This document shows positions 3,344 to 64,000 of a stretch of 64,000 nt of DNA, one piece after another. The notes beneath the pieces were generated by a model that had not been told where the DNA came from, searched no databases, and worked only from the letters and a program-made list of their open reading frames with translations. A program made the translations under genes and the position numbers. The stretch is from Candidatus Kaiserbacteria bacterium RIFCSPLOWO2_01_FULL_45_25. GTDB taxonomy: Bacteria; Patescibacteriota; Minisyncoccia; Phycocordibacterales; UBA918. The stretch covers positions 6,485-70,484 of the forward strand of contig MFLT01000012.1 of the NCBI GenBank assembly GCA_001781415.1, read 5' to 3'. The stretch's first letter is position 1; each line of letters starts with the position of its first letter.

Positions 3344-6166
3344 TTATACAATTAGGTTTAAGATTTTACCAGGTACGTAGATAACTTTCCTAATCTCACC
3401 TGTTAAATACTTTTCAACTCCTTCACTATGACGAGCAGCTTCAAGCGCTTCGGCTTCACTGGCTTCGGGAGAAACTGCAATGGTCCCACGCATTTTACCA
3501 TTAACTTGGACAGCAATTGTGACAATATCATCCACAATCAGACTTTCGTCTGCCTCAGGGAATTTAGTTAGGTGGATTGATTCAGTCTTCCCTGCTGCTA
3601 CCCATAGCTCAGCAGTGAGGTGTGGAGCAAATGGCGCCAAGACTCGAAGGAAGGTCTCGTAGTCACCCGTTGTGATGCCATTTTTTTCCACATGATTAAC
3701 AAACATCATCATGGCACTGATGGCGGTATTGAATTTAAAGGTGGTAATATCCTCGCTCACCTTCTTTATGGTCTTATGAAGAAGTTTGTCAGTGTCGAAT
3801 GCTACATCAACAATATGCTCAGATAGACCGTTCACTCGCTCAAGGAAGCGCCGTACACCAGCGATACCGCCGAGGTCAAACGGATAGTTAGAACCTTCGT
3901 AAGGTCCCATAAAAGCTAAGTACATCTTAACGGTGTCAGCTCCCACCCGCTTCACGTGTTCGTCTGGGTCAATGACGTTACCTTTACTCTTACTCATCTT
4001 GTTGCCGTCTGGACCAAGGATAAGTCCACGATTGAGGCGACGACGGTATGGTTCATTTTCGGTTACCAATCCAAGGTCAAAAAGCACCTTCTGCCAAAAG
4101 CGAGAATACAGAAGGTGCATGGTCGTATGCTCCGCTCCTCCAAAATAAATATCAATCGGCATCCAGTCTTTCTGGTGAGCTAGTGAGGCGATTTCTTCGC
4201 TGTTTTTGTTATCAAGATAGCGCAAGAAATACCAAGACGAATCCACAAAGGTGTCCATCGTTTCAACTTCTGGAGTCCAGCCAGCCCCAAAGATACTTTC
4301 GGTACGCTTCTTCAGCTCCTCACTCTTAGCTAGTGGCGCCACGCCAGTTGGTTTGAAGTCTACATCCTCGGGCAAGTGCCATGGTAAATGTTCCTTTGGA
4401 ATTGGATGAGCGTTGCCCTCCGGGTCATACACAATTGGAATCGGTACACCCCAATAACGTTGCCGGCCAATTGACCAGTCTCGCAAACGGTAGGTTGAAG
4501 ACATCTTGCCGCCAACTTTTTCTACAATCTTTTCTTTTGCTGTTTCAGAGTCCAGGCCATCAAATTCTCCAGAGTTGATAATCACGCCTGTTCCAGTGAA
4601 AATTTGTCCTTCAGTGAAGGCTGCCCAACCCTTCTGGTGTCCTTCCCACGTAAGTAGATTTTTTACCTCTGACTTATCTACCCATTCAATAGTGTGTTTA
4701 CCGTCTTCTAGTTCAGAGGGCTTTTGGTCGAGCGACTTCAACTTGATATGGTAAAAAGAACTTATTGTAAGTTGATTCTTATCCTTGGTGTGTCTGTAGC
4801 CATGACCTTGTGAGGTTGTAACCACATCGCCAATGATTTCATATTCTGTAAATCCAGTTTCTTCTTCTAGTTCGCGTCCAATCGCGACCACTTGTGATTC
4901 CCCGTCAGTCCCTCCACCTACAAAGTGAATGTGGGTATGAGTCCCATCTACTTCCTTTTGAACGAGAAACTGTCCATTTGTTGGGTGTTCAATCATTAGG
5001 TCGACACATTCGCGTACTAGAGTTTCTTTTTCTGGTTTCGGCGCTGAGATGCCAGTGAAAACAATTTTTTCTGCCACCACCTGCTTCACAGGGATGCTGA
5101 ACTTCTTAGCAAACGCACCATCTCTTTCATCATGTGCTGGTACCGCCATAATCGCACCTGTTCCGTAAGAAGCTAGGACGTAGTCAGATATATAAATTGG
5201 AATCTCCTCACCCAAGGCAGGATTGGTAGCCGTAACGCCTTCTAGCTTTACCCCAGTCTTTTCTTTGGTGGTGTCTAGACGGTCTTGCTCGTCTTTTTGT
5301 TTGGCTAGAGCTACATAGTCAGCAACTTCAGCGTAATTACTGATGTTGGCCTCGTTTTGAGCTACTAGTGGGTGCTCTGGAGCGAGAACGAGGTAAGTCG
5401 CCCCGTATAGGGTGTCGGGACGAGTAGTAAAGACAGTAACACTTTCACCAGTTGAAAGTTTGAAGTCTAGCGTCGCACCATTTGAGCGGCCGATCCACTG
5501 TCGCTGCGCTTCTTTGATGTGCTCTGGCCAATCAAGCGGGTCGAGGTCATCAGTCAGTCGGTCAGCGTACTTGGTAATACGAAGCATCCACTGCGGCATC
5601 TCGCGTTTTTCGATGACATCGCCCGAGCGTTCACAAGTGCCATCACTTAGCACCTGCTCGTTGGCAATTACTGTATTGCAGCCTGGACACCAGTTCACAA
5701 TTCCCTTTCCGCGGTACGCAATGTCCTTTCTAAAGAATTCAGTAAACATCCACTGGGTCCACTTGTAGTAGTCGGCGTCTGTTGAGCTGGTGGTCTTATC
5801 CCATGAGAAAGCGTTACCCATACTAGCGAGTTGGGTCTTCATGAAGGCGATGTTGTCGTTGGTCCAGGCTTTAGGGTCGAGATTTCGTTTGATAGCAGCA
5901 TTTTCGGCAGGGAGACCAAAAGCATCAAAGCCCATTGGGTAGAGCACCTGCTTCCCCATCATACGCTTGTAGCGTACGTAGATGTCTGGCACAGCAAAAG
6001 CGTACCAGTGTCCAATATGGAGATTCCCAGACGGGTATGGCCATTCGACGAGGACGTATTCCTTTTCTTTGCTATTGTCTCGCTCTCCGACATTGTATAT
6101 GCCCTCTTCCTCCCAAATCTGTTGCCACTTCTTCTCAATTTCGCCTGAATCAAACTTTTTATGCAT
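3344..6166 (-). CDS. leuS: leucyl-tRNA synthetase with inserted Nudix-box domain
   Basis: HIGH-type (HIGHWYA), KMSKS (KMSKSKGNVI), TTRPDT editing motif, GTGAIMAVPAHDERD; ~120-aa insertion before NSGEFDGLD containing canonical Nudix box GX5EX7REUXEEXGU (GGGTDGESQVVAIGRELEEETGF). Confidence 0.95.
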   Translation of the reverse strand: MHKKFDSGEIEKKWQQIWEEEGIYNVGERDNSKEKEYVLVEWPYPSGNLHIGHWYAFAVPDIYVRYKRMMGKQVLYPMGFDAFGLPAENAAIKRNLDPKAWTNDNIAFMKTQLASMGNAFSWDKTTSSTDADYYKWTQWMFTEFFRKDIAYRGKGIVNWCPGCNTVIANEQVLSDGTCERSGDVIEKREMPQWMLRITKYADRLTDDLDPLDWPEHIKEAQRQWIGRSNGATLDFKLSTGESVTVFTTRPDTLYGATYLVLAPEHPLVAQNEANISNYAEVADYVALAKQKDEQDRLDTTKEKTGVKLEGVTATNPALGEEIPIYISDYVLASYGTGAIMAVPAHDERDGAFAKKFSIPVKQVVAEKIVFTGISAPKPEKETLVRECVDLMIEHPTNGQFLVQKEVDGTHTHIHFVGGGTDGESQVVAIGRELEEETGFTEYEIIGDVVTTSQGHGYRHTKDKNQLTISSFYHIKLKSLDQKPSELEDGKHTIEWVDKSEVKNLLTWEGHQKGWAAFTEGQIFTGTGVIINSGEFDGLDSETAKEKIVEKVGGKMSSTYRLRDWSIGRQRYWGVPIPIVYDPEGNAHPIPKEHLPWHLPEDVDFKPTGVAPLAKSEELKKRTESIFGAGWTPEVETMDTFVDSSWYFLRYLDNKNSEEIASLAHQKDWMPIDIYFGGAEHTTMHLLYSRFWQKVLFDLGLVTENEPYRRRLNRGLILGPDGNKMSKSKGNVIDPDEHVKRVGADTVKMYLAFMGPYEGSNYPFDLGGIAGVRRFLERVNGLSEHIVDVAFDTDKLLHKTIKKVSEDITTFKFNTAISAMMMFVNHVEKNGITTGDYETFLRVLAPFAPHLTAELWVAAGKTESIHLTKFPEADESLIVDDIVTIAVQVNGKMRGTIAVSPEASEAEALEAARHSEGVEKYLTGEIRKVIYVPGKILNLIV

Positions 6167-31716: not shown

Positions 31717-32026
31717 CTCTATATCTCCTATGAACAAAGAACGGCTTAGATTCTATATTGGAGTCTAGAGTAAGTCAAACAGTAATAATGGTGTATAGGG
31801 AATGATCCTTGTGACTAAGTTAGTTAGTTTTGTTTACTACATAACGCAATCCATGCAAACGTAAATAGTACGGTTAACCGTACTATTTTGTTGGGTTGAG
31901 GGGAATGATCCTGACGGTCACCAACCTATATTATTTCGCATCCGCTCATAATCTAGCTGGTGCCGCCGTAAAACAGTGTCTATACACTGTTTTACCACCT
32001 CGCTCGCTCGTAAACTCGCATCGTTC

Positions 32027-32054
32027 CGGCGGTTCGATTCCCACGCAGGGTGCA
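32027..32054 (+). repeat. tRNA 3'-end-like fragment (GGTTCGATTCC T-loop + acceptor-like tail ...GGTGCA)
   Basis: contains GGTTCGATTCCC identical to the T-loop region of the adjacent tRNA-Ala(GGC) but T-stem cannot pair; no 5' half found. Confidence 0.5.
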
Positions 32055-32154
32055 ATTTGGAATCGGTCACTCTCGTGGATATTTTGTTTCGTTCCTCACA
32101 AAATATCTCACTCGCTCGACCCCCACTCGCGGCGGCCCAGAGGGGCCCCGCCGC

Positions 32155-32190
32155 TTCGGTTCGATTCCCCTAGATTCGCACAACAGCAAA
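32155..32190 (+). repeat. inverted partial copy of tRNA-Ala(GGC) 3' end (T-loop to trailer)
   Basis: GGTTCGATTCCCCTAGAtTCgCACAACAGC vs tRNA 3' end GGTTCGATTCCCCTAGAgTCcACAACAGC on opposite strand; arms flank hairpin GACCACTAAGCAaatGCTTAGTGGTC (32192..32217). Confidence 0.7.
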
Positions 32191-32225
32191 CGACCACTAA
32201 GCAAATGCTTAGTGGTCGGCTGTTG

Positions 32226-32298
32226 TGGACTCTAGGGGAATCGAACCCCTTACCTCTTCCATGCCATGGAAGCGCTCTACCAAATGAGCTAAGAGCCC
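32226..32298 (-). tRNA. tRNA-Ala (anticodon GGC)
   Basis: manual fold: acceptor GGGCTCT/AGAGTCC with G3:U70, D-arm GCTC/GAGC, anticodon stem CTTCC/GGAAG loop ATGGCAT, T-arm AGGGG-TTCGATT-CCCCT, discriminator A; CCA not encoded. Confidence 0.85.
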
Positions 32299-32396
32299 GT
32301 GAGTTCGACTATTATACGGATGGAATTAAAAATGAAAAGGGTATAAAAAAGCAGCCCGTGTTTGGGGCCGCTTGTTGTACCTTGTCAGTGTCCTGC

Positions 32397-32657
32397 TTAG
32401 GACTCGGCTGCGTTGGCTCTGTTGAAATCAATTTGCAGCGCAGCCAGTAATTCCGCTTGCTCTGCCGGTGTGCTTCGCTGGTATTGCTCGAGCGCCCTCA
32501 CCAAGAGATTATGCGTCAAGCCATTAAGCAGAAGCTTGTTGGCCTCCTCTGCAGCCAGTTGCCAGCGAGCTTGTTCATCCGCTTGGCTTTGTTGCAGACG
32601 GAGGTTGTATGCCTCTGCTGCCTGCCTGAACTCGTCCAGGAAGTCTTCCACGGTCAT
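32397..32657 (-). CDS. hypothetical small helical protein (GC-rich islet)
   Basis: 86-aa ORF, 4-nt overlap with upstream ORF. Confidence 0.45.
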   Translation of the reverse strand: MTVEDFLDEFRQAAEAYNLRLQQSQADEQARWQLAAEEANKLLLNGLTHNLLVRALEQYQRSTPAEQAELLAALQIDFNRANAAES

Positions 32658-32956
32658 GATTGCACCAGAGGTAACCGAGCCTGCAAGCTGTTGAGCGTCT
32701 GCTCAACATACAGCTTCGTCGACGTGTCGACCACCTCCGCCCGGTTATTGGGCTCGTTACGGAAGTGCTCAAACAGTCGAGCCAGCTCATAGCTGGGCAT
32801 TGTCCAAGGGAGGCTGACCTTAAACGCCGCCGTCCTGGCCAATTCAACAAAGTTGTCCGTCAGGCACTTGTCTTGGCCGTTGATGGCCAGGATGTAGTGT
32901 GTAGCAGCTGCCACAAACATGTTCTTGAACTCTTTTTCAGTGAGAACTGTGGGCAT
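32654..32956 (-). CDS. hypothetical protein (GC-rich islet)
   Basis: 100-aa ORF in 3-gene overlapping operon. Confidence 0.5.
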   Translation of the reverse strand: MPTVLTEKEFKNMFVAAATHYILAINGQDKCLTDNFVELARTAAFKVSLPWTMPSYELARLFEHFRNEPNNRAEVVDTSTKLYVEQTLNSLQARLPLVQS

Positions 32957-33281
32957 GATTGTCTCCTTTGGTTACGGGGTGTGATAGGGTGGGCACAGCG
33001 CAGTCACGCTCGATGACCTGGCTTTTGGTAAGCCAGCCAAACATACCTGGCGACTCCTCTGTCTTTTGGCGAATGACACATCCACCAGAAATCACAAAGT
33101 AGAACTCAATGATCTCTCCGTGCGTCAGCTTGTCGAAGTTAACGACCTTATAACGATGGTCGCCTTGTGGTTTCACCTGCACGATTGTGCCGGTGCTAAG
33201 GGTGTATCCTTCCGTCTTCTCCCCGCAAGCAGTGAAGACAATGGACACAAAGATCAGTACAAGAATGTCGTTAAGGTTCAC
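32937..33281 (-). CDS. putative lipoprotein (GC-rich islet)
   Basis: MNLNDILVLIFVSIVFTACG lipobox; 114 aa. Confidence 0.5.
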   Translation of the reverse strand: MNLNDILVLIFVSIVFTACGEKTEGYTLSTGTIVQVKPQGDHRYKVVNFDKLTHGEIIEFYFVISGGCVIRQKTEESPGMFGWLTKSQVIERDCAVPTLSHPVTKGDNHAHSSH

Positions 33282-35333: not shown

Positions 35334-35640
35334 TATAAGATTCGGTCACCATAAAACTTTCTCCCAGAAAGTTTTATCTAAGTTTTTATTTCGTTTCACT
35401 CATAAAAATCTAAGTACTCTCGAATCTTACTTGAACAAATGAGTACCTAAACCAGAGCTCGCTCGGGTTTAGGGTGCGAATGCAGTTCAAGAATGCCTGC
35501 ATACAGATTCTGTCCACTCATTGGACCTTTTATGCGCAAGCTTGAAAAGTCCTCAATGAGTCTTGCGAAATGGGTCCCTTCCCATTTCTCACCCAACTCG
35601 CCGACAAGCACTCGCTAACGCTCGTCTTGTGTACCGGCTC

Positions 35641-35668
35641 CGTCTTTCGAATCTTCTCTGATCGCACA
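35641..35668 (+). repeat. tRNA-Ala(UGC) 3'-end-like fragment (TTTCGAATCTTCTCTG...GCACA)
   Basis: matches T-loop/acceptor 3' strand of the adjacent tRNA (GTTCGAATCTTCTCTGG) in opposite orientation. Confidence 0.5.
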
Positions 35669-35809
35669 ACGGCAAAGTCCGCAATACTTTCGTGGGTGGT
35701 ATTTAGTCGAAGATTCGGTCACGAGTTACTAAAGCATAATCTTTCGCAAAGCTCAGATTCTGCTAAGTACTCTCGACCCCAGCTCGCTAGTTCGCAAGCT
35801 CACAGCGCT

Positions 35810-35838
35810 CCGCTTTTCGAATCTTCACGAAAGGTGCA
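35810..35838 (+). repeat. second tRNA-Ala(UGC) 3'-end-like fragment (TTTCGAATCTTCACG...GGTGCA)
   Basis: degenerate copy; ends in GGTGCA like fragment at 32027..32054. Confidence 0.45.
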
Positions 35839-35846
35839 TTAGCACC

Positions 35847-35923
35847 TTTCTTCTGGTCCACGAATAAAAAAGGCCGTCACTAGTGTGACGGACGCTTTTT
35901 TATATTCGTGGACCAGAGAAGAT
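35847..35923. repeat. inverted repeat (CTTCTGGTCCACGAATA / TATTCGTGGACCAGAGAAG) enclosing terminator hairpin CCGTCAC tagt GTGACGG; distal arm is the 3' end of tRNA-Ala(UGC)
   Basis: 17-19-nt arms; same architecture as downstream of tRNA-Ala(GGC). Confidence 0.65.
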
Positions 35924-35981
35924 TCGAACTCCCTGCCTCCTCAGTGCAAATGAGGCGCTCTACCAAGTGAGCTACTGGCCC
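35909..35981 (-). tRNA. tRNA-Ala (anticodon UGC)
   Basis: manual fold: acceptor GGGCCAG/CTGGTCC with G3:U70, D-arm GCTC/GAGC, anticodon stem CCTCA/TGAGG loop TTTGCAC, T-loop TTCGAAT (T-stem GGGAG/CTTCT with two G:U), discriminator A. Confidence 0.75.
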
Positions 35982-58100: not shown

Positions 58101-61100
58101 CTAATACGATGGTACGGCTAAGTAAACAATTTCGGTTTCATATGATCCGGCTGGCTGAAGCTGATTAACCTTTATTCGATACACTATATCATGGGTATCA
58201 GAACTTGGAATTCCACTATACATCACCTCAACTGGAGTGGTTTCCAGTGCCGCATAAGTGTCTGTGGCCGCAAAGCGAGTAGAGCCATTTTTGAGAGTTG
58301 GATCAGTCACATGATAACCGAAGCAGCCAGTTGAAGTTGGAGCACAGGCGTCCGCCCAACTATCAGGAACCAAGTTAGTGGCCGCAATTGGCGGGATAAA
58401 TACCCCAGCCTGACTTTGAAGTTGCTGACGAGCAAACTTAAATAACTGATAGCCCTCAGTAGCATTACTTTCTACTGTGACACGATGAGCACCGATATAC
58501 TCAGTGCCGAGATTAAGAAAGCCAAACCCAATACCAGTTGGAGAAGACGGGACGTCGGTTATTACTCCTGCTGTTGAAGTGCCTGAGGGTAGCCCACTTA
58601 GGGAGAAGTTCAAATACGGCCCTTCAATCACGAGCGACGGAAATGTATTACTGTCGACATGATTTACCGGAGCGTCGTTTGACACATCATATAAGCGGAA
58701 ATAATACACGGCCTGCACTCGTGCTGCCACCTGTCTGATAGTGAAGCTGTGCTCCTTGGTGGTACTGGCATAATGAATGTCGCCAGTGGCGTACTCTCCT
58801 GATGAGTTGTGAACTCCACAACCAAATCCAGCCCCAGCCACACAGCTATCACTACCAGTAAGTACACTAGTGGTGATGGTTTGATTATCTGGAGAAGACC
58901 CTTCGGCGTAGCACCACAGTGATCCCTCCAAGCAGCTAGAAGTGGCCGTCACATCATAGGCGGTGGCGAAAGTTGGATCCTCTGAATATTGAAGTTTGAA
59001 TTTTATATTGTCACCCTGAACGTTTCGTCGCTCAGTCACGGCAATGCGGAGGGCCAATGTATCATTGTTGGCGATATTAGTTGGAGCCACCTCCTCAAGA
59101 GCCAGTGGCGTCACTGGTGTTTCATTGTTTATGTCACTATACCAACGCCAAACGGTAGTGGCTGGGGTGTAACCAGCGGTTCTAATTTGTGGGTAGTTGT
59201 TATATCCATCAAGCGGAGTACCGTCACTTTTTACGGCTCTAAAACAATAAGTTGATTGTGGGATGGCGCCGTTATGCTCCAGGTGCCAATCGTATTCAAT
59301 ATCATTTCCATCAAGAGTTGGGTACGGATTGGCTACTGTAGGATTTTGTTGAGCCAACGAACCAGAAATATCAGCTACCGAAATTAACAAATCTCCAGGA
59401 TTTGGGGGATTGGTAGACAATGATTGTCCATCGGTGGTAGTGGCTGAGGCAAAACCACGCCAGACTGTACCACTACTAATGGCTCCAACATCAAACCACG
59501 AACCACTATCTATAGCCGAACAAGTAGTAGCGCGCACTCCATATTGTAATTTAAAGTTAACAAACCCAGCGGGCATATTGGCGTTACTAGTTCTGACCGT
59601 CATTCTGATTCGTACCCGATCGCCAGTACCAAGTGGTTCGTCTGCAATGGTAATTGAGGTATTCTCTCCTAGACCAGCCAGATTTGGTGGCCAGGCTTCC
59701 GTTGGAGTTAGTTCACCATTATTGACATAAAAACGATAATAATTCTGACGAAGTGACAAATCAGCCACTGGCCATTCAATCAGTTCTACTCGATACGTCA
59801 TGTTGGTACCAGTGTTACTACGCCAAATTGTGTAAGTAGAGGTACTAGTGAGCCCAAAGCCCGCCAATGGTCTTGGGTAGGTAGTGTTGGCTCCAGCTGC
59901 TCTAGTATTGGCCATAATGGAGGTATTATTTACCGAAGCCACTGGCGTTGGTAAGTTTACAGTCAGAGTTAACGGCCCAGTTCCACCGTTAGTGGCACCA
60001 TTGGAGCGCTGCACATTCATTTCACCTAAACCACTCTGAATATTTTCGACTACCCAAGCTACGGAAGTTTGTTCAACTGCCACACTGGCGCCTGTTTCTA
60101 GTTGGAAAGAAATTGCCCCAATACTAGACAGCCATACTTCGTGACCAAAATGCACGACGTTGGTGGTAGCACCCATCCGTTTCTGAACATGCAAAAAAGT
60201 CCGAGCCAAGCTATTCACAGCGGTGATACTTTCGGTTTCAGTGACACCGGCAGCAGCGTAACTATGTTCTGCTCGTTGTATCTGCCAATTAGTACCCACA
60301 AATTCAACTACCGCATAACTAACATTAGCAATACTGGCACCAGAGGCACCACGTCTAAATACAGGCGACTGAGTCACACTGTCCCACTCGGATGTCACTA
60401 GACCAGCGTAAAAGTTTCGAGAAGCATTACGGTTTTCGACGCCAGTCACAAAGACCACCACGTCACTATCGTTAGTTATTCCAGTCACCGGTGTTCCAGT
60501 AGCAACAACAGTAGCTGTCGTATAAGAGACAGTACCAACCGAACGTACCCTTATCTCGTTGTCAGTATCTTGCTTTCCGATAAACTCAACAATCTCCCAC
60601 TCTACTCTGGTGTTTGAGGTGGCAGCTGGAGGCCTGGTAATGGTAAAGCTGGTAAGTAAATTCTCTGGATTTGATATGTAAGCAGTGACATCGTCAGCGT
60701 TTTGTCCGGCAGTGGCTGAGGTGTTACCCGCACCCGTCTGGTGTGAATTTGTGATGCGCACAAAAGCCAGGCTTGAACTGGCCGGAGCTACATAGTCTGT
60801 ACCAGCCACCAAAGTTGCACTGGTGCCTGAGACTTGGGTTATGCCGCGCTGAATTTTGAAGTCACGTTTGGGAGCAGTAGTTATTTCTGCATAGTTAGTG
60901 TACACAGACAACGGTGTACCATTAGCCGACACTCTAAAACAATAAGTTGTCCCGTATGAGGTAAATTCAGTCGAAGTTATACTGTATTCAAGTTCAACAT
61001 AGTCATTGGTAGGAATACTTGTGCTGGCTGATAGGGATTCAGTGTCACGCACGCCACCATTGGGAGTAATAAAGGTACCAGGTGAATTACTGACTCCTCC

Positions 61101-64000
61101 ACTACCTACAGCCAAGTTGGTGGTATCGCTACCATTAGTCAAAAAAGTAGAGTCAAACATATCCCAACCATCAAGTGATGAATCAACGTCTGTCCAAACT
61201 GTAGCGGTATCACAAGTAGTAATACGTGGTGCGTACTCTAGCCTAAATCTATTCTCAGGACCAGTTACACTTCCAGTGTTTGTAACCGCTAAGCGTAGAC
61301 GAATTGGCGACTCAAGACTAAAGTCAGACAGAAGGGTGTTTTCGGTGCCACCAGTGGCTGAAGTAGCTGCTGTTTCGTTCCCATTATCATTTCGCCAATG
61401 GTAGTTTGTTTGAGTAAGAATTGGACCAACCACCGTTGTCTCTCCAGAGATCATCACTTGACCAGATGGTCCAATACTAGCCCCACCACTAGCCGCCACG
61501 TCGGTGGCTGGAGAATTAATAGCTAGACTGATGGTATCACCGTTATTGGCGTCAGCCGAAACGTCATAGACCACATACAAACAAAGTGTGGCAGTGGTTG
61601 AACTTATGACTGAGTCTGTAAAAATCGCGCTGCCGGCAGTATCGGTAAACCCTCCAGTGACGGTACTACCATACTGACTTTCGGTACCAGCATAAGTCTC
61701 CGATGAGCAGTTATAAGGAGCACTGCTATCTAAATCATAATACAACCTAATATTATCCAGCCCAGCCACTTCATCAATTGTGCCAAGTTCAGTGACCGTA
61801 ACTGAAGTTATGTTACGTGATGAGGAGTTTTCAATAATGGCAAAACTACCGCCGGCATAAACATCACTAGCACCAACGGTGGCATTGGTAGTAAGAGTAC
61901 CCAGACTGGATACAGTAACATCCGAATTGATAGTAACAGTTGGGTAATTTGAATACACACTCAGAGGCTGACCCCCGCCAGTGATACGGAAACAATAGGT
62001 CAATCCCTCCTCGGCTGTACTTGAAGCCATAATAGAAAATTCTGCTTCAAAAAAGTCATTCTGATTAAGGGTCAGTGACGGTGTGGTGTTGTTACTGTCA
62101 CGCAGGGCTCCGTTAGTTGTTAGGTAGTTTGTACTTGGCAAATTTGTCAGTCCGCCGTTACCAACAGTTATGTCGGTAGTATCTGAGCCATCAGTAATAT
62201 TGGACGAGTCAGCCATTTGCCACACGGCACTCACATCACCCACTGTCGACCAAGTGACAATATCTGTACAACTTGGTGCCGCCACACCATACTCAAGACT
62301 ATAAGTAGTAGGTACGCTACTAGTTGAACCTTGATTGGCAATACCAAGACGGAGTCTAATTAATTCCTCTTTTTGTAATGACGTTAATGGAGTATTCTCG
62401 GTGCCACCAGTCGCTGAAGTGGCTCCACTTTCAGAACCATCATCATTACGCCAATGATAAGCAAATTGAGTAAGGCTGGAATCCACTACAGTGGTCGTAC
62501 CAGGAAGTAGCACTGCCGATGAAGGAAACACTTCCAGTCCTCCCGAAACGAGAATGTCGTTAACTGGATCAGCTACCAAAATTTCTATAGTGTCTCCGTC
62601 TTGGGCATTGCTATTGATATCAAACACTACATAAAAACACATTGTCTGAGTTGTATTGATTGAAACTGGTGACGCTGTAAACGAAGCCACACCATCAGCA
62701 CCAGAAAATCCACCTGAGACAGTACCGCCAAATTGTGAATCCCCTCCCGCATAACTTTCAGAACTACAATCGTAGGGAGAGGAAGTATCAAGATCATAAA
62801 ACAGACGCACATTACTGACCGAGCCCTGGGCATCTAGAGTTCCATTTTCTGAAATCACAATTGATGAGACGGTCTGAGCCGACTTGGCATCCAAACTAAA
62901 TGAACCGCCAATATACTGATCAGTCACAGAATTTCTTACTTGACTAACTTGAGTGCCAAGACCGGTGAGAATAATCTGCGGGCCAATGTCAGCTACTGTC
63001 TCTCCATACAAGTCCAAAGCTCCTGATGCGTTATACCAGGTTGTATACAGTCTTTCATAACCCATGAGGTTCATATCAACGCCGTACAAATCACCAGCAG
63101 TAGTTGTGAGTGGGCCAGCTTCAGCATCCCAGGTATTCATATTGTCAGTTGAACGTCTATAGTAAACTCGTCCGGTGGAAGCTGTAGCGAGGGTGTCACG
63201 AATGGAATAGGCAGCGTATATATCACCATTGTTAAGATCACGCCCTACAGCTACCTGATGTAGTCCGCGCCCAGCGATGTTGGTAAACACGTTTGCGGTA
63301 GCAGACCATGAACCAGCAGAAAATATAGCGGTGCGGATATCATGATCAGCAGTCACAAACTCATTGTTATCAGCAGCGTAAACCAAATAAATATCACCGC
63401 TAGCAATATCGACAGTTGCAGCCATACCTACGTCATAAGTGGCATTTCCAGCTGAGGCGGCGTCAATAGTATTAAAACCAGACCAAGAAGAACCATTCCA
63501 AGTACTGGAACGGATAACATGTGTGGTACTACGATTGATGAGCAAAACACTTCCACTTGGTAGTGGCATAAGCAAAGACCAACTGTTAGCGTTGCCTTGG
63601 GGGGCTGTACCAGTTGCAGACCAGTTACCACTAACGCCACAACTGGTGGAGCAGCGTCGGATATGAGTACCATTACTGTCGTCTATGTTTATATAAACAG
63701 TGCCGTCAGTTCCTTTAGTGATTGAGACAACGTTTGTGCCCGCTGCGTAGGTAGTGGCGACCCCGGGCATAGTACTGATACTAGTGGACACAAGTAATGT
63801 GTCGGTAGAAGTGTCAAGGTTATTGTAAAAAATCTCATCGTTACCAGTATCAAAAGTAGCAATGTGAATTATGGTACCAGTATCACCAGGAGTCCACTGG
63901 TCGTACCAAACCGATACTGCCACACAGTCAGTCTGACTATCGACCCGCACTCTTGCCCCCCAAGTATTTCCCCCATCTGTAGTCTTGCTATAAACACACA
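58101..64000 (-). CDS. giant secreted repeat protein (>=1965 aa, N-terminus beyond window) with BNR/Asp-box motifs and >=4 tandem ~190-aa modules
   Basis: frame open to window edge (track 'start' at 63950 is GTG, upstream codons ...YSKTTDGGNTWGAR have no stop); Asp-box-like SKTTDGGNTW, STDNMNTW; modules marked by Y[HR]WRNDxG...IRLR...FRLEY...YCFR...PL..YxNYP. Confidence 0.7.
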   Translation of the reverse strand, partial: CVYSKTTDGGNTWGARVRVDSQTDCVAVSVWYDQWTPGDTGTIIHIATFDTGNDEIFYNNLDTSTDTLLVSTSISTMPGVATTYAAGTNVVSITKGTDGTVYINIDDSNGTHIRRCSTSCGVSGNWSATGTAPQGNANSWSLLMPLPSGSVLLINRSTTHVIRSSTWNGSSWSGFNTIDAASAGNATYDVGMAATVDIASGDIYLVYAADNNEFVTADHDIRTAIFSAGSWSATANVFTNIAGRGLHQVAVGRDLNNGDIYAAYSIRDTLATASTGRVYYRRSTDNMNTWDAEAGPLTTTAGDLYGVDMNLMGYERLYTTWYNASGALDLYGETVADIGPQIILTGLGTQVSQVRNSVTDQYIGGSFSLDAKSAQTVSSIVISENGTLDAQGSVSNVRLFYDLDTSSPYDCSSESYAGGDSQFGGTVSGGFSGADGVASFTASPVSINTTQTMCFYVVFDINSNAQDGDTIEILVADPVNDILVSGGLEVFPSSAVLLPGTTTVVDSSLTQFAYHWRNDDGSESGATSATGGTENTPLTSLQKEELIRLRLGIANQGSTSSVPTTYSLEYGVAAPSCTDIVTWSTVGDVSAVWQMADSSNITDGSDTTDITVGNGGLTNLPSTNYLTTNGALRDSNNTTPSLTLNQNDFFEAEFSIMASSTAEEGLTYCFRITGGGQPLSVYSNYPTVTINSDVTVSSLGTLTTNATVGASDVYAGGSFAIIENSSSRNITSVTVTELGTIDEVAGLDNIRLYYDLDSSAPYNCSSETYAGTESQYGSTVTGGFTDTAGSAIFTDSVISSTTATLCLYVVYDVSADANNGDTISLAINSPATDVAASGGASIGPSGQVMISGETTVVGPILTQTNYHWRNDNGNETAATSATGGTENTLLSDFSLESPIRLRLAVTNTGSVTGPENRFRLEYAPRITTCDTATVWTDVDSSLDGWDMFDSTFLTNGSDTTNLAVGSGGVSNSPGTFITPNGGVRDTESLSASTSIPTNDYVELEYSITSTEFTSYGTTYCFRVSANGTPLSVYTNYAEITTAPKRDFKIQRGITQVSGTSATLVAGTDYVAPASSSLAFVRITNSHQTGAGNTSATAGQNADDVTAYISNPENLLTSFTITRPPAATSNTRVEWEIVEFIGKQDTDNEIRVRSVGTVSYTTATVVATGTPVTGITNDSDVVVFVTGVENRNASRNFYAGLVTSEWDSVTQSPVFRRGASGASIANVSYAVVEFVGTNWQIQRAEHSYAAAGVTETESITAVNSLARTFLHVQKRMGATTNVVHFGHEVWLSSIGAISFQLETGASVAVEQTSVAWVVENIQSGLGEMNVQRSNGATNGGTGPLTLTVNLPTPVASVNNTSIMANTRAAGANTTYPRPLAGFGLTSTSTYTIWRSNTGTNMTYRVELIEWPVADLSLRQNYYRFYVNNGELTPTEAWPPNLAGLGENTSITIADEPLGTGDRVRIRMTVRTSNANMPAGFVNFKLQYGVRATTCSAIDSGSWFDVGAISSGTVWRGFASATTTDGQSLSTNPPNPGDLLISVADISGSLAQQNPTVANPYPTLDGNDIEYDWHLEHNGAIPQSTYCFRAVKSDGTPLDGYNNYPQIRTAGYTPATTVWRWYSDINNETPVTPLALEEVAPTNIANNDTLALRIAVTERRNVQGDNIKFKLQYSEDPTFATAYDVTATSSCLEGSLWCYAEGSSPDNQTITTSVLTGSDSCVAGAGFGCGVHNSSGEYATGDIHYASTTKEHSFTIRQVAARVQAVYYFRLYDVSNDAPVNHVDSNTFPSLVIEGPYLNFSLSGLPSGTSTAGVITDVPSSPTGIGFGFLNLGTEYIGAHRVTVESNATEGYQLFKFARQQLQSQAGVFIPPIAATNLVPDSWADACAPTSTGCFGYHVTDPTLKNGSTRFAATDTYAALETTPVEVMYSGIPSSDTHDIVYRIKVNQLQPAGSYETEIVYLAVPSY

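What the first reader, a model, noticed from the sequence alone, without database searches (positions are those of the whole stretch)
31896..32300. tRNA-Ala(GGC) followed by inverted and degenerate plus-strand copies of its own 3' end around a hairpin
The tRNA lies on the minus strand at 32226..32298. Immediately downstream, the plus strand has the 26-bp hairpin GACCACTAAGCAaatGCTTAGTGGTC. Beyond it lies a near-perfect inverted copy of the tRNA T-loop/acceptor/trailer:
- GGTTCGATTCCCCTAGAtTCgCACAACAGC (copy)
- GGTTCGATTCCCCTAGAgTCcACAACAGC (tRNA)

A second, more degenerate copy (GGTTCGATTCCCACGCAGGGTGCA) lies at 32027..32054.

In a read-through transcript, the tRNA 3' half could pair with the copy in a ~30-bp helix that competes with the tRNA fold. 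That could act as a processing or regulatory element. Alternatively, the copies are scars of repeated site-specific integration/inversion at the tRNA 3' end (att-like duplications). The adjacent 32.4-33.3 kb GC-rich islet would fit that view.
Basis: seen in the sequence. Interest (0 to 1): 0.65.

Follow-up and report, generated by a model that had tools for sequence, protein, structure and literature searches.

The report
Structured insertion modules behind tRNA genes
The extra copies of the tRNA's tail are the two arms of small, folded DNA modules, from a widespread and apparently undescribed family, that insert right behind tRNA genes in tiny groundwater bacteria, and the enzyme that moves them is unknown.

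Summary
tRNA-Ala(GGC) at 32226-32298 (-) is followed by a hairpin and by an inverted and a degenerate copy of its own 3' end.

These copies belong to two tandem modules plus a relic at 31788-32190. Reading along the tRNA strand, each module runs: hairpin; inverted copy of the tRNA's T-loop-to-3'-end; a conserved core of about 100 nt that folds into a three-way junction; direct copy of the tRNA end.

The second tRNA in the window, Ala(UGC), carries the same structure. A covariance model finds 24 modules in relatives and 92 in metagenome contigs. Where sequence allows a test, nearly all lie just downstream of, and co-oriented with, a tRNA (34 or more anticodons) or a tmRNA. Arms match the local tRNA; cores are homologous and covary.

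Empty and occupied orthologous sites, a strain polymorphism, and a module 94% identical between genomes saturated at synonymous sites all show insertion and spread.

No Rfam family, no adjacent integrase and no paper were found. The best reading is non-autonomous, tRNA-end-specific insertion cassettes whose folded strand is the recombination site. The mechanism and the enzyme are inferred, not shown.

The parts
32226..32298 (-). tRNA-Ala(GGC). Its 3' part, from the T loop to the end (32224-32247, GGTTCGATTCCCCTAGAGTCCACA), is the segment 'x' that the modules copy.
   Evidence: ARAGORN; Rfam at 63.2 bits. The 24-nt segment is the direct repeat that bounds the extra module in strain L005.
32311..32338 (-). 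Promoter-like site upstream of tRNA-Ala(GGC): TTTTCA, 16-nt spacer, TATAAT.
   Evidence: Consensus scan, 10 of 12 positions. This is a consensus match only.
32191..32218 (-). Hairpin 'h', a terminator-like stem-loop with tail TTTGCTGTTG. It is the centre of the palindrome of about 90 nt at 32158-32247.
   Evidence: (repeat I2).
32158..32190 (-). Module A1, left arm. Inverted copy of the tRNA trailer, acceptor 3' strand, T stem and T loop (TTTGCTGTTGTGCGAATCTAGGGGAATCGAACC on the minus strand).
   Evidence: (repeat I1). The non-palindromic T loop TTCGATT shows this is an inverted copy of the 3' part, not a direct copy of the tRNA 5' strand.
32065..32157 (-). Module A1, type-1 core. Junction GAA; hairpin P2 (32124-32157); GG; hairpin P3 (32065-32123, GGGGTCGAG...GAGAGTGACC).
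   Evidence: Covariance model R1 hits 32053-32174 at 70.7 bits, E = 6e-19. Fold; covariation.
32049..32064 (-). Module A1, right arm. Degenerate direct copy of the tRNA T-loop and 3' end (GATTCCAAATTGCACC). It pairs with the left arm to form P1.
32027..32048 (-). Module A2, left arm (CTGCGTGGGAATCGAACCGCCG).
31916..32026 (-). Module A2, type-2 core (...CGGCACCAGCTAGATT...GGTTGGTGACC).
   Evidence: Homologous to the modules behind tRNA-Ala(UGC) in L012 and L015 (alignment A4). Partial R1 hit at 31916-31964, E = 0.02.
31890..31915 (-). Module A2, right arm. Degenerate direct copy of the tRNA end (GTCAGGATCATTCCCCTCAACCCAAC).
   Evidence: (repeat D6).
31863..31889 (-). Perfect palindrome AAATAGTACGGTT/AACCGTACTATTT that closes the array. 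It is terminator-like.
   Evidence: repeat I4.
31788..31815 (-). Relic of a third right arm (GTCACAAGGATCATTCCCTATACACC).
   Evidence: 12-nt exact repeat GGGAATGATCCT at 31798 and 31901 (repeat D6).
35909..35981 (-). tRNA-Ala(UGC), the second tRNA in the window, with the same downstream architecture.
35866..35908 (-). Trailer plus terminator hairpin behind tRNA-Ala(UGC) (CCGTCACACTAGTGACGG, then CCTTTTTTAT).
35695..35865 (-). Module B1. Split left arm (35850-35865 and 35816-35829) with an inner hairpin (35830-35849); type-1 core (35717-35815); right arm (35695-35716).
   Evidence: R1 hits 35705-35830 at 96.8 bits, E = 3e-27. Coordinates.
35540..35694 (-). Remnant of the older trailer hairpin (35668-35694, the orthologue of the L011 trailer), plus degenerate module B2. 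B2 has its left arm at 35646-35667 and a core whose P2 is intact and whose P3 has decayed.
   Evidence: P2 is homologous to the second module in L082. R1 is weak here, E = 1.3.

Best explanation
The tRNA-end copies are the arms of small (about 130-250 nt), non-autonomous insertion modules. These belong to a large, so far undescribed family that sits at the 3' ends of tRNA and tmRNA genes in Patescibacteria (CPR bacteria).

Module anatomy. Each module reads, on the tRNA strand: x (the tRNA's own T-loop-to-3'-end) - hairpin - inverted copy of x - conserved core - direct copy of x - the old downstream sequence.

Fold. On the tRNA-sense strand the two copies pair into stem P1, a look-alike of the tRNA acceptor/T-stem helix. 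P1 closes a three-way junction made of two conserved hairpins, P2 and P3.

Shown here:
- the anatomy;
- structural covariation;
- near-exclusive, co-oriented placement behind tRNAs and a tmRNA;
- arms that match the local tRNA while cores are homologous;
- independent insertions into a conserved ancestral tRNA cluster;
- a strain polymorphism;
- tandem accretion, with the newest module next to the tRNA;
- near-identical modules in genomes that are saturated at synonymous sites.

Inferred:
- The modules are inserted by a trans-acting site-specific recombinase, or by an endonuclease-driven repair process, acting at the T loop or 3' end.
- The folded single strand (DNA, or possibly RNA) is the recognition site. 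Its stem mimics the target, as in integron attC sites or the folded attP of CTX phage.
- Repeated insertion next to the tRNA pushes older modules outward, where they decay.

In this window, two modules and a relic follow tRNA-Ala(GGC), and one intact plus one decayed module follow tRNA-Ala(UGC).
For: Anatomy and coordinates.

Family model. R1 finds 24 distinct modules in 1.2 Mb of related Paceibacteria loci. All are downstream of, and co-oriented with, a tRNA (Ala-UGC, Ala-GGC, Pro-CGG, Pro-GGG or Val-CAC).

Scan not anchored on any tRNA. Of these, 67 have a same-strand tRNA within 700 nt upstream, none has an opposite-strand tRNA there, and 12 have no room upstream. Several of the remaining 13 follow a tmRNA, or a tRNA that ARAGORN missed. 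At least 34 anticodons are represented.

Covariation. Paired cells are 80.9% against 62.1% in shuffles, and 86.9% against 65.8%; 0 of 500 shuffles reach the observed value in either set. Sliding the partner columns collapses pairing to 33-47%. P3 is 96-98% paired with many double changes. The middle pair of P2a occurs as CG, GC, AU and UA. G.T pairs outnumber A.C pairs 66 to 14, so the tRNA-sense strand is the folded one.

Arms. Among 57 modules directly behind a tRNA, the right arm is 20/20 identical to the module's own tRNA end in 11 and at least 15/20 in 27. Against non-cognate tRNAs the mean is 9.6 of 20.

Insertion.
- The conserved empty Val-to-Pro spacer (A/T)CGGGAGGTGTTCTGTGT is retained after the right arm in L030 and L035.
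- In L069 the direct repeat is the tRNA end plus 13 nt of spacer.
- 17 other Paceibacteria have no module behind tRNA-Ala(GGC).
- Strain L005 carries one extra type-3 module bounded by a 24-nt direct repeat, in otherwise 99.9-100% identical DNA.

Spread or constraint. Between L030 and L043 the module is 94% identical while Ddl third codon positions are 45% identical, and the flanks diverge right after the right arm.

Cargo. A gene in L151 and a 3.6-kb island in L082 lie next to modules.

Not a described RNA family.
Against: - No recombinase, transposase or reverse transcriptase was found in the window, near the modules or by a tyrosine-recombinase motif scan of the ddl-anchored and viral loci.
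- No free or circular form was found, and no clean phage-borne attP.
- How an inverted and a direct copy of the local target arise at each new tRNA is unexplained. A pre-formed element would need arms already matched to each tRNA; in L069 it would even need to match 13 nt of the local spacer.
- The invariant G.U pair, the purine-rich internal loop and the conserved loop motifs would suit an RNA as well as single-stranded DNA.
- Long-term retention with compensatory changes at an orthologous site could mean a function that benefits the host.
- The metagenome sample was retrieved with a pattern that fixes the base of P3, so those pairs are invariant by construction.
Confidence: 0.65

Rival explanations
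1. The module is a host or selfish structured non-coding RNA gene. Its terminal stem mimics the acceptor/T-stem minihelix of the neighbouring tRNA, so that tRNA enzymes (RNase P, RNase Z, the CCA-adding enzyme, perhaps AlaRS) process or stabilise it. The tRNA-end copies exist for that mimicry, and the family spreads by local duplication.
For: - Strong covariation, an invariant G.U pair, a conserved 5'-GNA/3'-GA internal loop and conserved loop motifs on the sense strand.
- P1 equals the acceptor plus T stem. One clade (L030, L032, L035, L043, L066) keeps a G.T wobble at the position of the alanine identity pair G3:U70.
- Some modules lie inside tRNA clusters, where they would be co-transcribed.
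- Retention at an orthologous site across genomes saturated at synonymous sites, with compensatory changes.
Against: - Terminator-like hairpins separate most modules from the tRNA, and no promoter is evident.
- Tandem arrays, decayed distal copies, cargo genes, presence/absence at orthologous sites and several different core types with one architecture fit mobile DNA better.
- Mimicry of Pro, Val, Arg, Ser and other acceptor stems has no obvious common RNA function.
- The left arm is an inverted DNA copy that includes the T loop and trailer, which a minihelix does not need.
Confidence: 0.15
2. The copies are ordinary att scars of conventional integrase-carrying islands or prophages that integrated in the tRNA T loop and were later deleted. 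On this view the conserved 'core' is just the arm of attP carrying double-stranded protein-binding sites.
For: - The identity block runs from the T loop to the tRNA 3' end, as in the T-loop class of tRNA integration sites (established knowledge, Williams 2002).
- Targets include a tmRNA.
- There is tandem accretion, and islands or cargo occur at some sites.
- The direct repeat bounds the L005 insert.
Against: - No integrase in or near any of more than 100 modules.
- Most inserts are only 130-250 nt in total.
- Compensatory base changes and the G.T over A.C bias show selection on a folded single strand, which duplex binding sites do not need.
- The inverted copy of the target is not a feature of classical attP/attR sites.
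Confidence: 0.1
3. The inverted copy is a cis-acting RNA element of the tRNA transcript: an extended terminator or processing switch that competes with the tRNA fold.
For: The predicted minimum-energy folds of tRNA plus trailer pair the tRNA 3' half with the left arm at both loci. Terminator-like hairpins sit at the centre of the palindrome.
Against: - tRNA-Ala(GGC) lacks any such element in 17 other Paceibacteria. Compact tRNA clusters with 18-nt spacers are the ancestral state.
- The idea does not explain the conserved core, the right arm, arrays, cargo or the tmRNA case.
- A helix that unfolds the tRNA would be harmful rather than regulatory.
Confidence: 0.05
4. The copies are non-functional by-products of replication template switching or fold-back repair at terminator hairpins, giving a duplication with the middle copy inverted. 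No mobile element is involved.
For: The order x - inverted x - x is the signature of two template switches. In L069 the hairpin is made of the local spacer plus its own inverted copy.
Against: The segment between the inverted and direct copies is a homologous, covarying core of about 100 nt found at more than 100 unrelated tRNA loci. Local template switching cannot create that.
Confidence: 0.05

Closest known systems
tRNA/tmRNA-targeting integrative elements of tyrosine integrases (genomic islands, prophages; T-loop sublocation class of Williams 2002; cis-mobilisable remnants lacking an integrase)
   Same: The target is the 3' end of tRNA and tmRNA genes. The repeated block runs from the T loop to the 3' end plus a few bases. 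The displaced original 3' end keeps the old downstream sequence. Insertions accrete in tandem, with the newest next to the tRNA. The tRNA stays intact.
   Different: No integrase is present. The whole insert is usually 130-250 nt. An additional inverted copy of the target pairs with the direct copy. The core is conserved and covaries as a three-way junction. One family covers 34 or more anticodons.
Integron attC sites and cassette arrays
   Same: Arrays of cassettes, ORF-less or gene-carrying, each end in an imperfect inverted-repeat site. That site is conserved in fold rather than sequence and is strand-specific. New cassettes enter at the primary site. The stem of the folded site has the same duplex sequence as the primary site.
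   Different: There is no intI gene next to the array and no R/L box consensus (GTTRRRY). The fold is a three-way junction rather than a bulged hairpin. The anchor is a tRNA gene rather than attI. The arms differ from locus to locus.
Folded single-stranded attP of CTX phage and other XerCD-exploiting elements
   Same: Two inverted copies of a target-like sequence, separated by about 90-110 nt, fold into a stem that mimics the chromosomal target. In the integrated state the inverted copy, the spacer and the hybrid site lie at one end.
   Different: Here the target is a tRNA end, not dif. There is no phage genome. No Xer involvement has been shown.
Non-autonomous hairpin elements (MITEs, REPINs, IS200/IS605-derived PATEs)
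   Same: They are small and protein-less, form hairpins, are multi-copy and lie downstream of genes. They presumably depend on an enzyme supplied in trans.
   Different: Their terminal repeats are element-specific. Here the arms are copies of the local target. Here insertion is specific to one class of gene end and has a fixed orientation.
IS110-family bridge RNA / seekRNA
   Same: A structured non-coding segment carried by the element holds sequences that match the target.
   Different: There is no DEDD recombinase ORF in the module. The target-matching segments are 16-30 nt and pair with each other rather than sitting in open loops. Transcription has not been shown.
tRNA-like RNA domains (tmRNA tRNA-like domain, viral tRNA-like structures, mascRNA)
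   Same: The terminal helix equals acceptor stem plus T stem. In one Ala-linked clade the G3.U70-like wobble is kept.
   Different: There are no D-arm or anticodon-arm equivalents. The T loop is replaced by a two-hairpin insert. The mimicry follows whichever tRNA is adjacent.

Membership tests
Classical tyrosine-integrase element integrated in a tRNA gene | Direct repeat of the tRNA 3' part (attL/attR) bounding the insert, with the tRNA restored | tested here: met
   24-nt direct repeat in L005. 18-nt and 29-nt direct repeats in L030 and L069, with the old spacer retained. Right arm at least 15/20 identical to the module's own tRNA end in 27 of 57 modules.
Classical tyrosine-integrase element integrated in a tRNA gene | Integrase gene inside the element, next to an att site | tested here: not met
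   No Pfam integrase hit in cargo or neighbours. The box-II motif scan of the ddl-anchored and viral loci found none. ORF clustering around modules gave no recombinase family.
Integron attC / cassette array | R''/R' core sites RYYYAAC ... GTTRRRY and a bulged single hairpin with extrahelical bases | tested here: not met
   The arms are copies of the tRNA end (for example GAATCCTGTACGGTCC), not GTTRRRY. The fold is a three-way junction.
Integron attC / cassette array | Integron integrase (intI) adjacent to the primary site | tested here: not met
   Upstream of the tRNAs are ddl and a 206-aa membrane-like protein, or the islet ORFs. No integrase was found.
Integron attC / cassette array | Co-oriented array of cassettes, each ending in a structure-conserved, strand-specific inverted-repeat site | tested here: met
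   Arrays in the window, L013, L053, L082 and L125. Gene cassette in L151. G.T over A.C strand bias.
MITE / REPIN / PATE | Element-specific terminal inverted repeats shared by all copies | tested here: not met
   All 12 P1 pairs vary with the local tRNA, while P2 and P3 are conserved.
Any described RNA family (Rfam 15), including tRNA pseudogene, tmRNA, group I intron and self-cleaving ribozymes | Match to the family covariance model | tested here: not met
   Only the two tRNAs reach gathering score in the window. Permissive scans of both loci give only generic hairpin (microRNA-like) matches far below threshold. Thirteen metagenome loci show only tRNA, tmRNA, rRNA and one intron.
Hammerhead ribozyme (also a three-way junction) | Core CUGANGA ... 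GAA ... UH in the junction strands | tested here: not met
   By inspection of the alignments, the junction strands are GAA(A/G), GG and none. There is no CUGANGA in any circular permutation.
Intrinsic terminator of the tRNA gene | GC-rich hairpin followed by a T tract directly after the gene | tested here: met
   Hairpins at 32218-32191 and 35891-35874 on the minus strand. This covers only the hairpin 'h', not the arms or the core.
Folded attP of CTX-type (Xer-dependent) elements | Stem that mimics a dif site bound by XerC/XerD | not tested
   The stem mimics a tRNA end, not a dif-like 28-mer. No Xer assay is possible with these tools, and no dif comparison was made.

The most novel reading that the evidence does not exclude
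A new kind of site-specific mobile element. It is a protein-less module of about 100 nt, defined by its fold, that can colonise the 3' end of any tRNA or tmRNA gene. On insertion it ends up flanked by an inverted and a direct copy of its target.

Two readings are open. It could be an integron-like cassette system anchored on tRNA genes, in which the folded strand's stem mimics the attachment site. Or it could be a 'programmable' element whose arms specify the target for an unknown trans-acting enzyme of CPR bacteria; candidates include the HTH/LAGLIDADG-like proteins seen next to some of these tRNAs.
Probability: 0.25. Interest if true: 0.85.

Novelty: new variant of a known kind. Interest (0 to 1): 0.7.

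Why it matters
CPR/Patescibacteria have tiny genomes and few recognised mobile elements. It marks tRNA and tmRNA ends as hot spots where hairpins, genes and islands accumulate.

If the folded module is a recombination site, it would be a second, independent example of the integron principle, in which a structure-defined single-strand site drives cassette capture. Because the arms follow the target, it could also expose a recombination mechanism that can be retargeted.

If it is instead an RNA, it is a new widespread tRNA-mimicking RNA class.

There is also a practical point. The modules cause spurious ORF calls (a 181-184-aa 'gene' is called across this locus) and can break assemblies (the scaffold gap in L005).

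Tried and rejected
- Phage origin. blastn against the phage collection hit only tRNA genes.
- tRNA pseudogene or another Rfam family. Nothing was found.
- Group I intron in the tRNA. A paper on Patescibacteria tRNA introns concerns the anticodon loop only, and there is no intron model hit at these loci.
- Hammerhead or other ribozyme cores. The junction sequences do not fit (inspection).
- Integrase search. The Pfam annotations attached to the window's called genes, direct Pfam scans of ten window proteins and of the L082 island proteins, a motif scan of the ddl-anchored and viral loci and ORF clustering around modules found none.
- Free or viral form. The viral-contig scan gave one good hit, L090, in bacterial-looking DNA with tandem modules and no clean attP. 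No contig had terminal overlaps that would indicate a circle.
- DNA mini-hairpin loops (GCGNAGC) as a test of DNA against RNA. The motif is enriched 14 to 0 on the sense strand. However, the count is confounded by the conserved GCGGAGC of the P2 internal loop, so it is not used as evidence.
- GC-rich islet as the integrated element. It is on the wrong side of the tRNA, and its ORFs have no family or homologue hits.
- GC skew to infer which strand is single-stranded during replication. The signal was too weak to use.
- Literature. Four full-text searches (a fifth query failed on syntax) found no description of such elements. This library is incomplete, so prior description cannot be excluded.
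Full report
**1. The observation**

ARAGORN and Rfam place tRNA-Ala(GGC) at 32226-32298 on the minus strand. Reading on from the tRNA, the sequence is:
- trailer CAACAGC;
- hairpin CGACCACTAAGCA-TTT-GCTTAGTGGTCG at 32191-32218;
- TTTGCTGTTGTGCGAATCTAGGGGAATCGAACC at 32158-32190. This is the reverse complement of the tRNA's trailer, acceptor 3' strand, T stem and T loop, with one mismatch and one extra base.

A second GGTTCGATTCC lies at 32031 on the plus strand. The motif occurs only at this locus in the 64 kb: 3 matches against 0.71 expected. The region is identical in several independent assemblies of the same groundwater organism.

**2. The copies belong to something larger**

The second tRNA of the window, tRNA-Ala(UGC) at 35909-35981 (-), has the same arrangement built from its own 3' end. 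The elements at the two loci also share motifs that do not come from either tRNA.

The source is a Parcubacteria/Paceibacteria (CPR) genome from the Rifle aquifer. A scan of reference genomes with the neighbouring Ddl protein returned 80 related loci. In these, tRNA-Ala(UGC) is syntenic.

In many of them the tRNA is followed, on the same strand, by one module. It runs:
- trailer and terminator hairpin (h);
- left arm, an inverted copy of the tRNA from the T loop to the 3' end, sometimes interrupted by a small hairpin;
- GAA-AGNCGSAG, then hairpin P2, then GAGNC-GG;
- GGUCGMG, then hairpin P3, then YGUGACC;
- right arm, a direct copy of the tRNA from the T loop onward;
- the former downstream sequence.

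Single-sequence folds agree on a three-way junction in which the left and right arms form P1.

**3. A family with a conserved, covarying fold**

A covariance model built from 13 modules finds 24 distinct modules in 1.2 Mb of related loci. Every one lies downstream of, and co-oriented with, a tRNA (Ala-UGC, Ala-GGC, Pro-CGG, Pro-GGG or Val-CAC). Most start 32-90 nt after the tRNA end or are second in an array.

The window has two hits: 35705-35830 (96.8 bits) and 32053-32174 (70.7 bits).

A core-only pattern was then searched in metagenome contigs, a search not anchored on any tRNA. The model finds 92 modules in the 80 loci returned. Their contexts are:
- 67 have a same-strand tRNA within 700 nt upstream;
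- none has an opposite-strand tRNA there;
- 12 lie too close to the end of the contig or of the stretch held;
- of the remaining 13, one follows a tmRNA, three follow tRNAs that ARAGORN missed (one of them with a group I intron), and several others lie behind cargo DNA.

At least 34 anticodons are represented.

Covariation is strong in both alignments:
- 80.9% and 86.9% of cells are paired, against 62% and 66% in shuffles; 0 of 500 shuffles reach the observed value;
- sliding the partner columns drops pairing to 33-47%;
- P3 is 96-98% paired, with many double substitutions;
- the middle pair of P2a occurs as CG, GC, AU and UA.

One G.U pair in P3 is practically invariant. G.T pairs outnumber A.C pairs 66 to 14, so the tRNA-sense strand is the one under structural selection.

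One caveat applies. The metagenome set was retrieved with a pattern that fixes the base of P3.

No Rfam family matches.

**4. Arms follow the local tRNA; cores do not**

In 57 modules directly behind a tRNA, the right arm is 20/20 identical to the module's own tRNA end in 11 cases and at least 15/20 in 27. The non-cognate mean is 9.6 of 20.

The copied block starts at about T-loop position 57 and runs to the discriminator plus 0-13 nt.

Non-palindromic T loops (TTCGATT in Ala-GGC, TTCAATT in Pro, TTCGAGT in Val) show that the left arm is a true inverted copy of the 3' part. It is not a direct copy of the tRNA's 5' strand.

A short-arm class copies only ...CCAC plus the trailer.

At least three core types share this architecture:
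- type 1, which is what the model describes;
- type 2: window 31916-32026, L012 and L015;
- type 3: L017, the L053 Val-Pro spacer and the L005 insert.

**5. The modules are insertions**

The ancestral Paceibacteria arrangement is a compact cluster: ddl, Ala(UGC), Val, Pro, Pro, Ala(CGC), Ala(GGC), with spacers of about 18 nt.

The evidence for insertion is as follows.
- The conserved Val-to-Pro spacer (A/T)CGGGAGGTGTTCTGTGT is intact in six genomes. In L030 and L035 it is found after the right arm of an inserted module. L053 carries a type-3 module at the same place.
- In L069 the Pro-to-Pro spacer is occupied, and the direct repeat comprises the tRNA end plus 13 nt of spacer. The hairpin there consists of the spacer and its own inverted copy.
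- tRNA-Ala(GGC) has no module in 17 other genomes.
- A sister strain (L005, GCA_001781375.1) differs from the window by one extra type-3 module between the tRNA and module A1. The insert is bounded by the 24-nt direct repeat GGTTCGATTCCCCTAGAGTCCACA and contains a scaffold gap.
- In the window's Ala(UGC) locus, module B1 sits between the tRNA and the truncated trailer hairpin that still precedes the older module B2. That hairpin is the orthologue of the L011 trailer, so new modules enter next to the tRNA.
- L030 and L043 share a 94% identical module, although their Ddl genes are 45% identical at third codon positions. Similarity ends right after the right arm.
- Genes can lie between modules (L151) or between the tRNA and a module (L082, L172).

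**6. Mechanism: what is shown and what is inferred**

Shown: co-oriented insertion that is nearly always found at tRNA or tmRNA 3' ends; preservation of the tRNA; duplication of the T-loop-to-3'-end block; an added inverted copy; a conserved folded core; accretion; and spread or constraint.

Inferred: a trans-acting enzyme inserts the module at the T loop or 3' end and recognises the folded sense strand. The P1 stem of that strand has the same duplex sequence as the target. This is the logic of integron attC sites and of the folded attP of CTX phage.

The boundaries of the identity block are those of the classical T-loop class of tRNA integration sites (background knowledge).

Several points are not explained.
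- It is not known how each new tRNA acquires matched inverted and direct arms. They could be made from the target at insertion, carried by tRNA-specific lineages, or homogenised by hairpin-templated correction.
- The enzyme is unknown. No tyrosine recombinase, transposase or reverse transcriptase was seen in the window, in cargo or near modules.
- The only recurrent neighbours are an HTH protein family with a LAGLIDADG-like 'LYWAEG' motif next to tRNA-plus-module in five loci, and in L030 a protein carrying a homing-endonuclease-associated repeat. These are leads only.

**7.

The competing helix is predicted. However, terminator-like hairpins precede the inverted copy, and the module is absent from most relatives' tRNA-Ala(GGC). 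A regulatory role is therefore unlikely.

The 'att-like scars of repeated integration' idea is right in outline but misses the structured, family-wide nature of the element.

The GC-rich islet (three unannotatable ORFs, found in none of the related loci examined) lies upstream of the tRNA and is not bounded by the copies.

**8. Comparison and novelty**

The element behaves like a miniature tRNA-targeting integrative element and resembles an attC-type folded site. It fails the defining tests of each known family:
- no integrase;
- no attC boxes;
- no element-specific terminal repeats;
- no Rfam model (see the membership table).

Four literature searches found no description. I therefore file it as a new variant of a known kind, namely small non-autonomous site-specific insertion elements at tRNA genes. 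There is a real possibility, about 0.25, that the mechanism is new.

**Verdict**

The feature is real, widespread and, within the resources searched here, undescribed.

Noticed in passing
window 35540-35908 (-): The second tRNA in the window, tRNA-Ala(UGC), carries the same architecture: one intact module (B1) and one decayed module (B2). This was the clue that the finding is part of a family.
   Followed up: yes
L005 2167-2298 (GCA_001781375.1, MFLO01000078.1): A sister strain has an extra type-3 module, bounded by a 24-nt direct repeat of the tRNA end, inserted between tRNA-Ala(GGC) and module A1. The insert contains a scaffold gap of 25 N.
   Followed up: yes
L108 3-728, L118 654-1388, L119 844-1512, L125 3543-4220, L131 95-562: A recurrent ORF family of 156-245 aa has an N-terminal homeodomain-like HTH and a LAGLIDADG-like 'LYWAEG(S/Y)K' motif. 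In most cases it lies directly next to a tRNA gene that is followed by a module. It may be a homing endonuclease and is a candidate mobilising factor.
   Followed up: partly
L030 12420-13150 (-): A 243-aa protein between two tRNA-Pro genes matches PF18780 (homing-endonuclease-associated repeat; 43 bits, above the cut-off) and has an HTH.
   Followed up: partly
L099 3101-3215 (-) and 3272-3681 (-): A module sits directly downstream of a tmRNA gene, so the family also uses the tRNA-like 3' end of tmRNA.
   Followed up: partly
L151 2985-4110: A TrpC-like ORF of about 190 aa is flanked by two identical copies of hairpin, module and a tail of about 45 nt, behind tRNA-Ser(GCU). This is a gene-cassette-like arrangement.
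   Followed up: partly
window 31896-32450 (+): A 184-aa ORF is called as a 181-aa gene in the ENA record. It runs antisense through the tRNA and across both modules and is almost certainly a spurious gene call.
   Followed up: partly
window 32397-33281 (-): The GC-rich islet (54% against about 43%) holds three small overlapping ORFs (86, 100 and 114 aa). They have no Pfam, PHROG or NCBIfam hit and no homologue in 80 related loci, so they look like lineage-specific accessory genes.
   Followed up: partly
L030, L032, L035, L043, L066 (for example L032 11109-11124): In one clade the left arm reads GGGCCGTACAGG, not GGACCG.... P1 therefore keeps a G.T wobble at the position of the alanine identity pair G3:U70. 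A plain inverted DNA copy would not produce this.
   Followed up: no
L125 4331-4534 (+): A group I intron (Rfam, 58.6 bits) lies inside a tRNA gene that ARAGORN missed, and a module follows that tRNA.
   Followed up: no
window 3344-6166 (-): A 940-aa class-I aminoacyl-tRNA synthetase carries a precomputed NUDIX domain hit inside the synthetase. This is an unusual domain combination.
   Followed up: no
window 58101-63950 (-): A very large ORF (1949 aa in the window, about 2054 aa in the record) has no Pfam hit.
   Followed up: no
L090 2830-3200 (-) (IMGVR_UViG_3300033463_005745): Two tandem modules (the best scores 47.7 bits, at 63% GC) lie in a contig labelled viral. The held part of the contig carries ordinary bacterial genes (GalE, a CysE-like protein, cytidine deaminase), and no tRNA lies within it.
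   Followed up: partly
window 1-64000: Cumulative GC skew peaks near 27-28 kb and falls afterwards, which may mark a switch in replication direction. The signal is weak.
   Followed up: no
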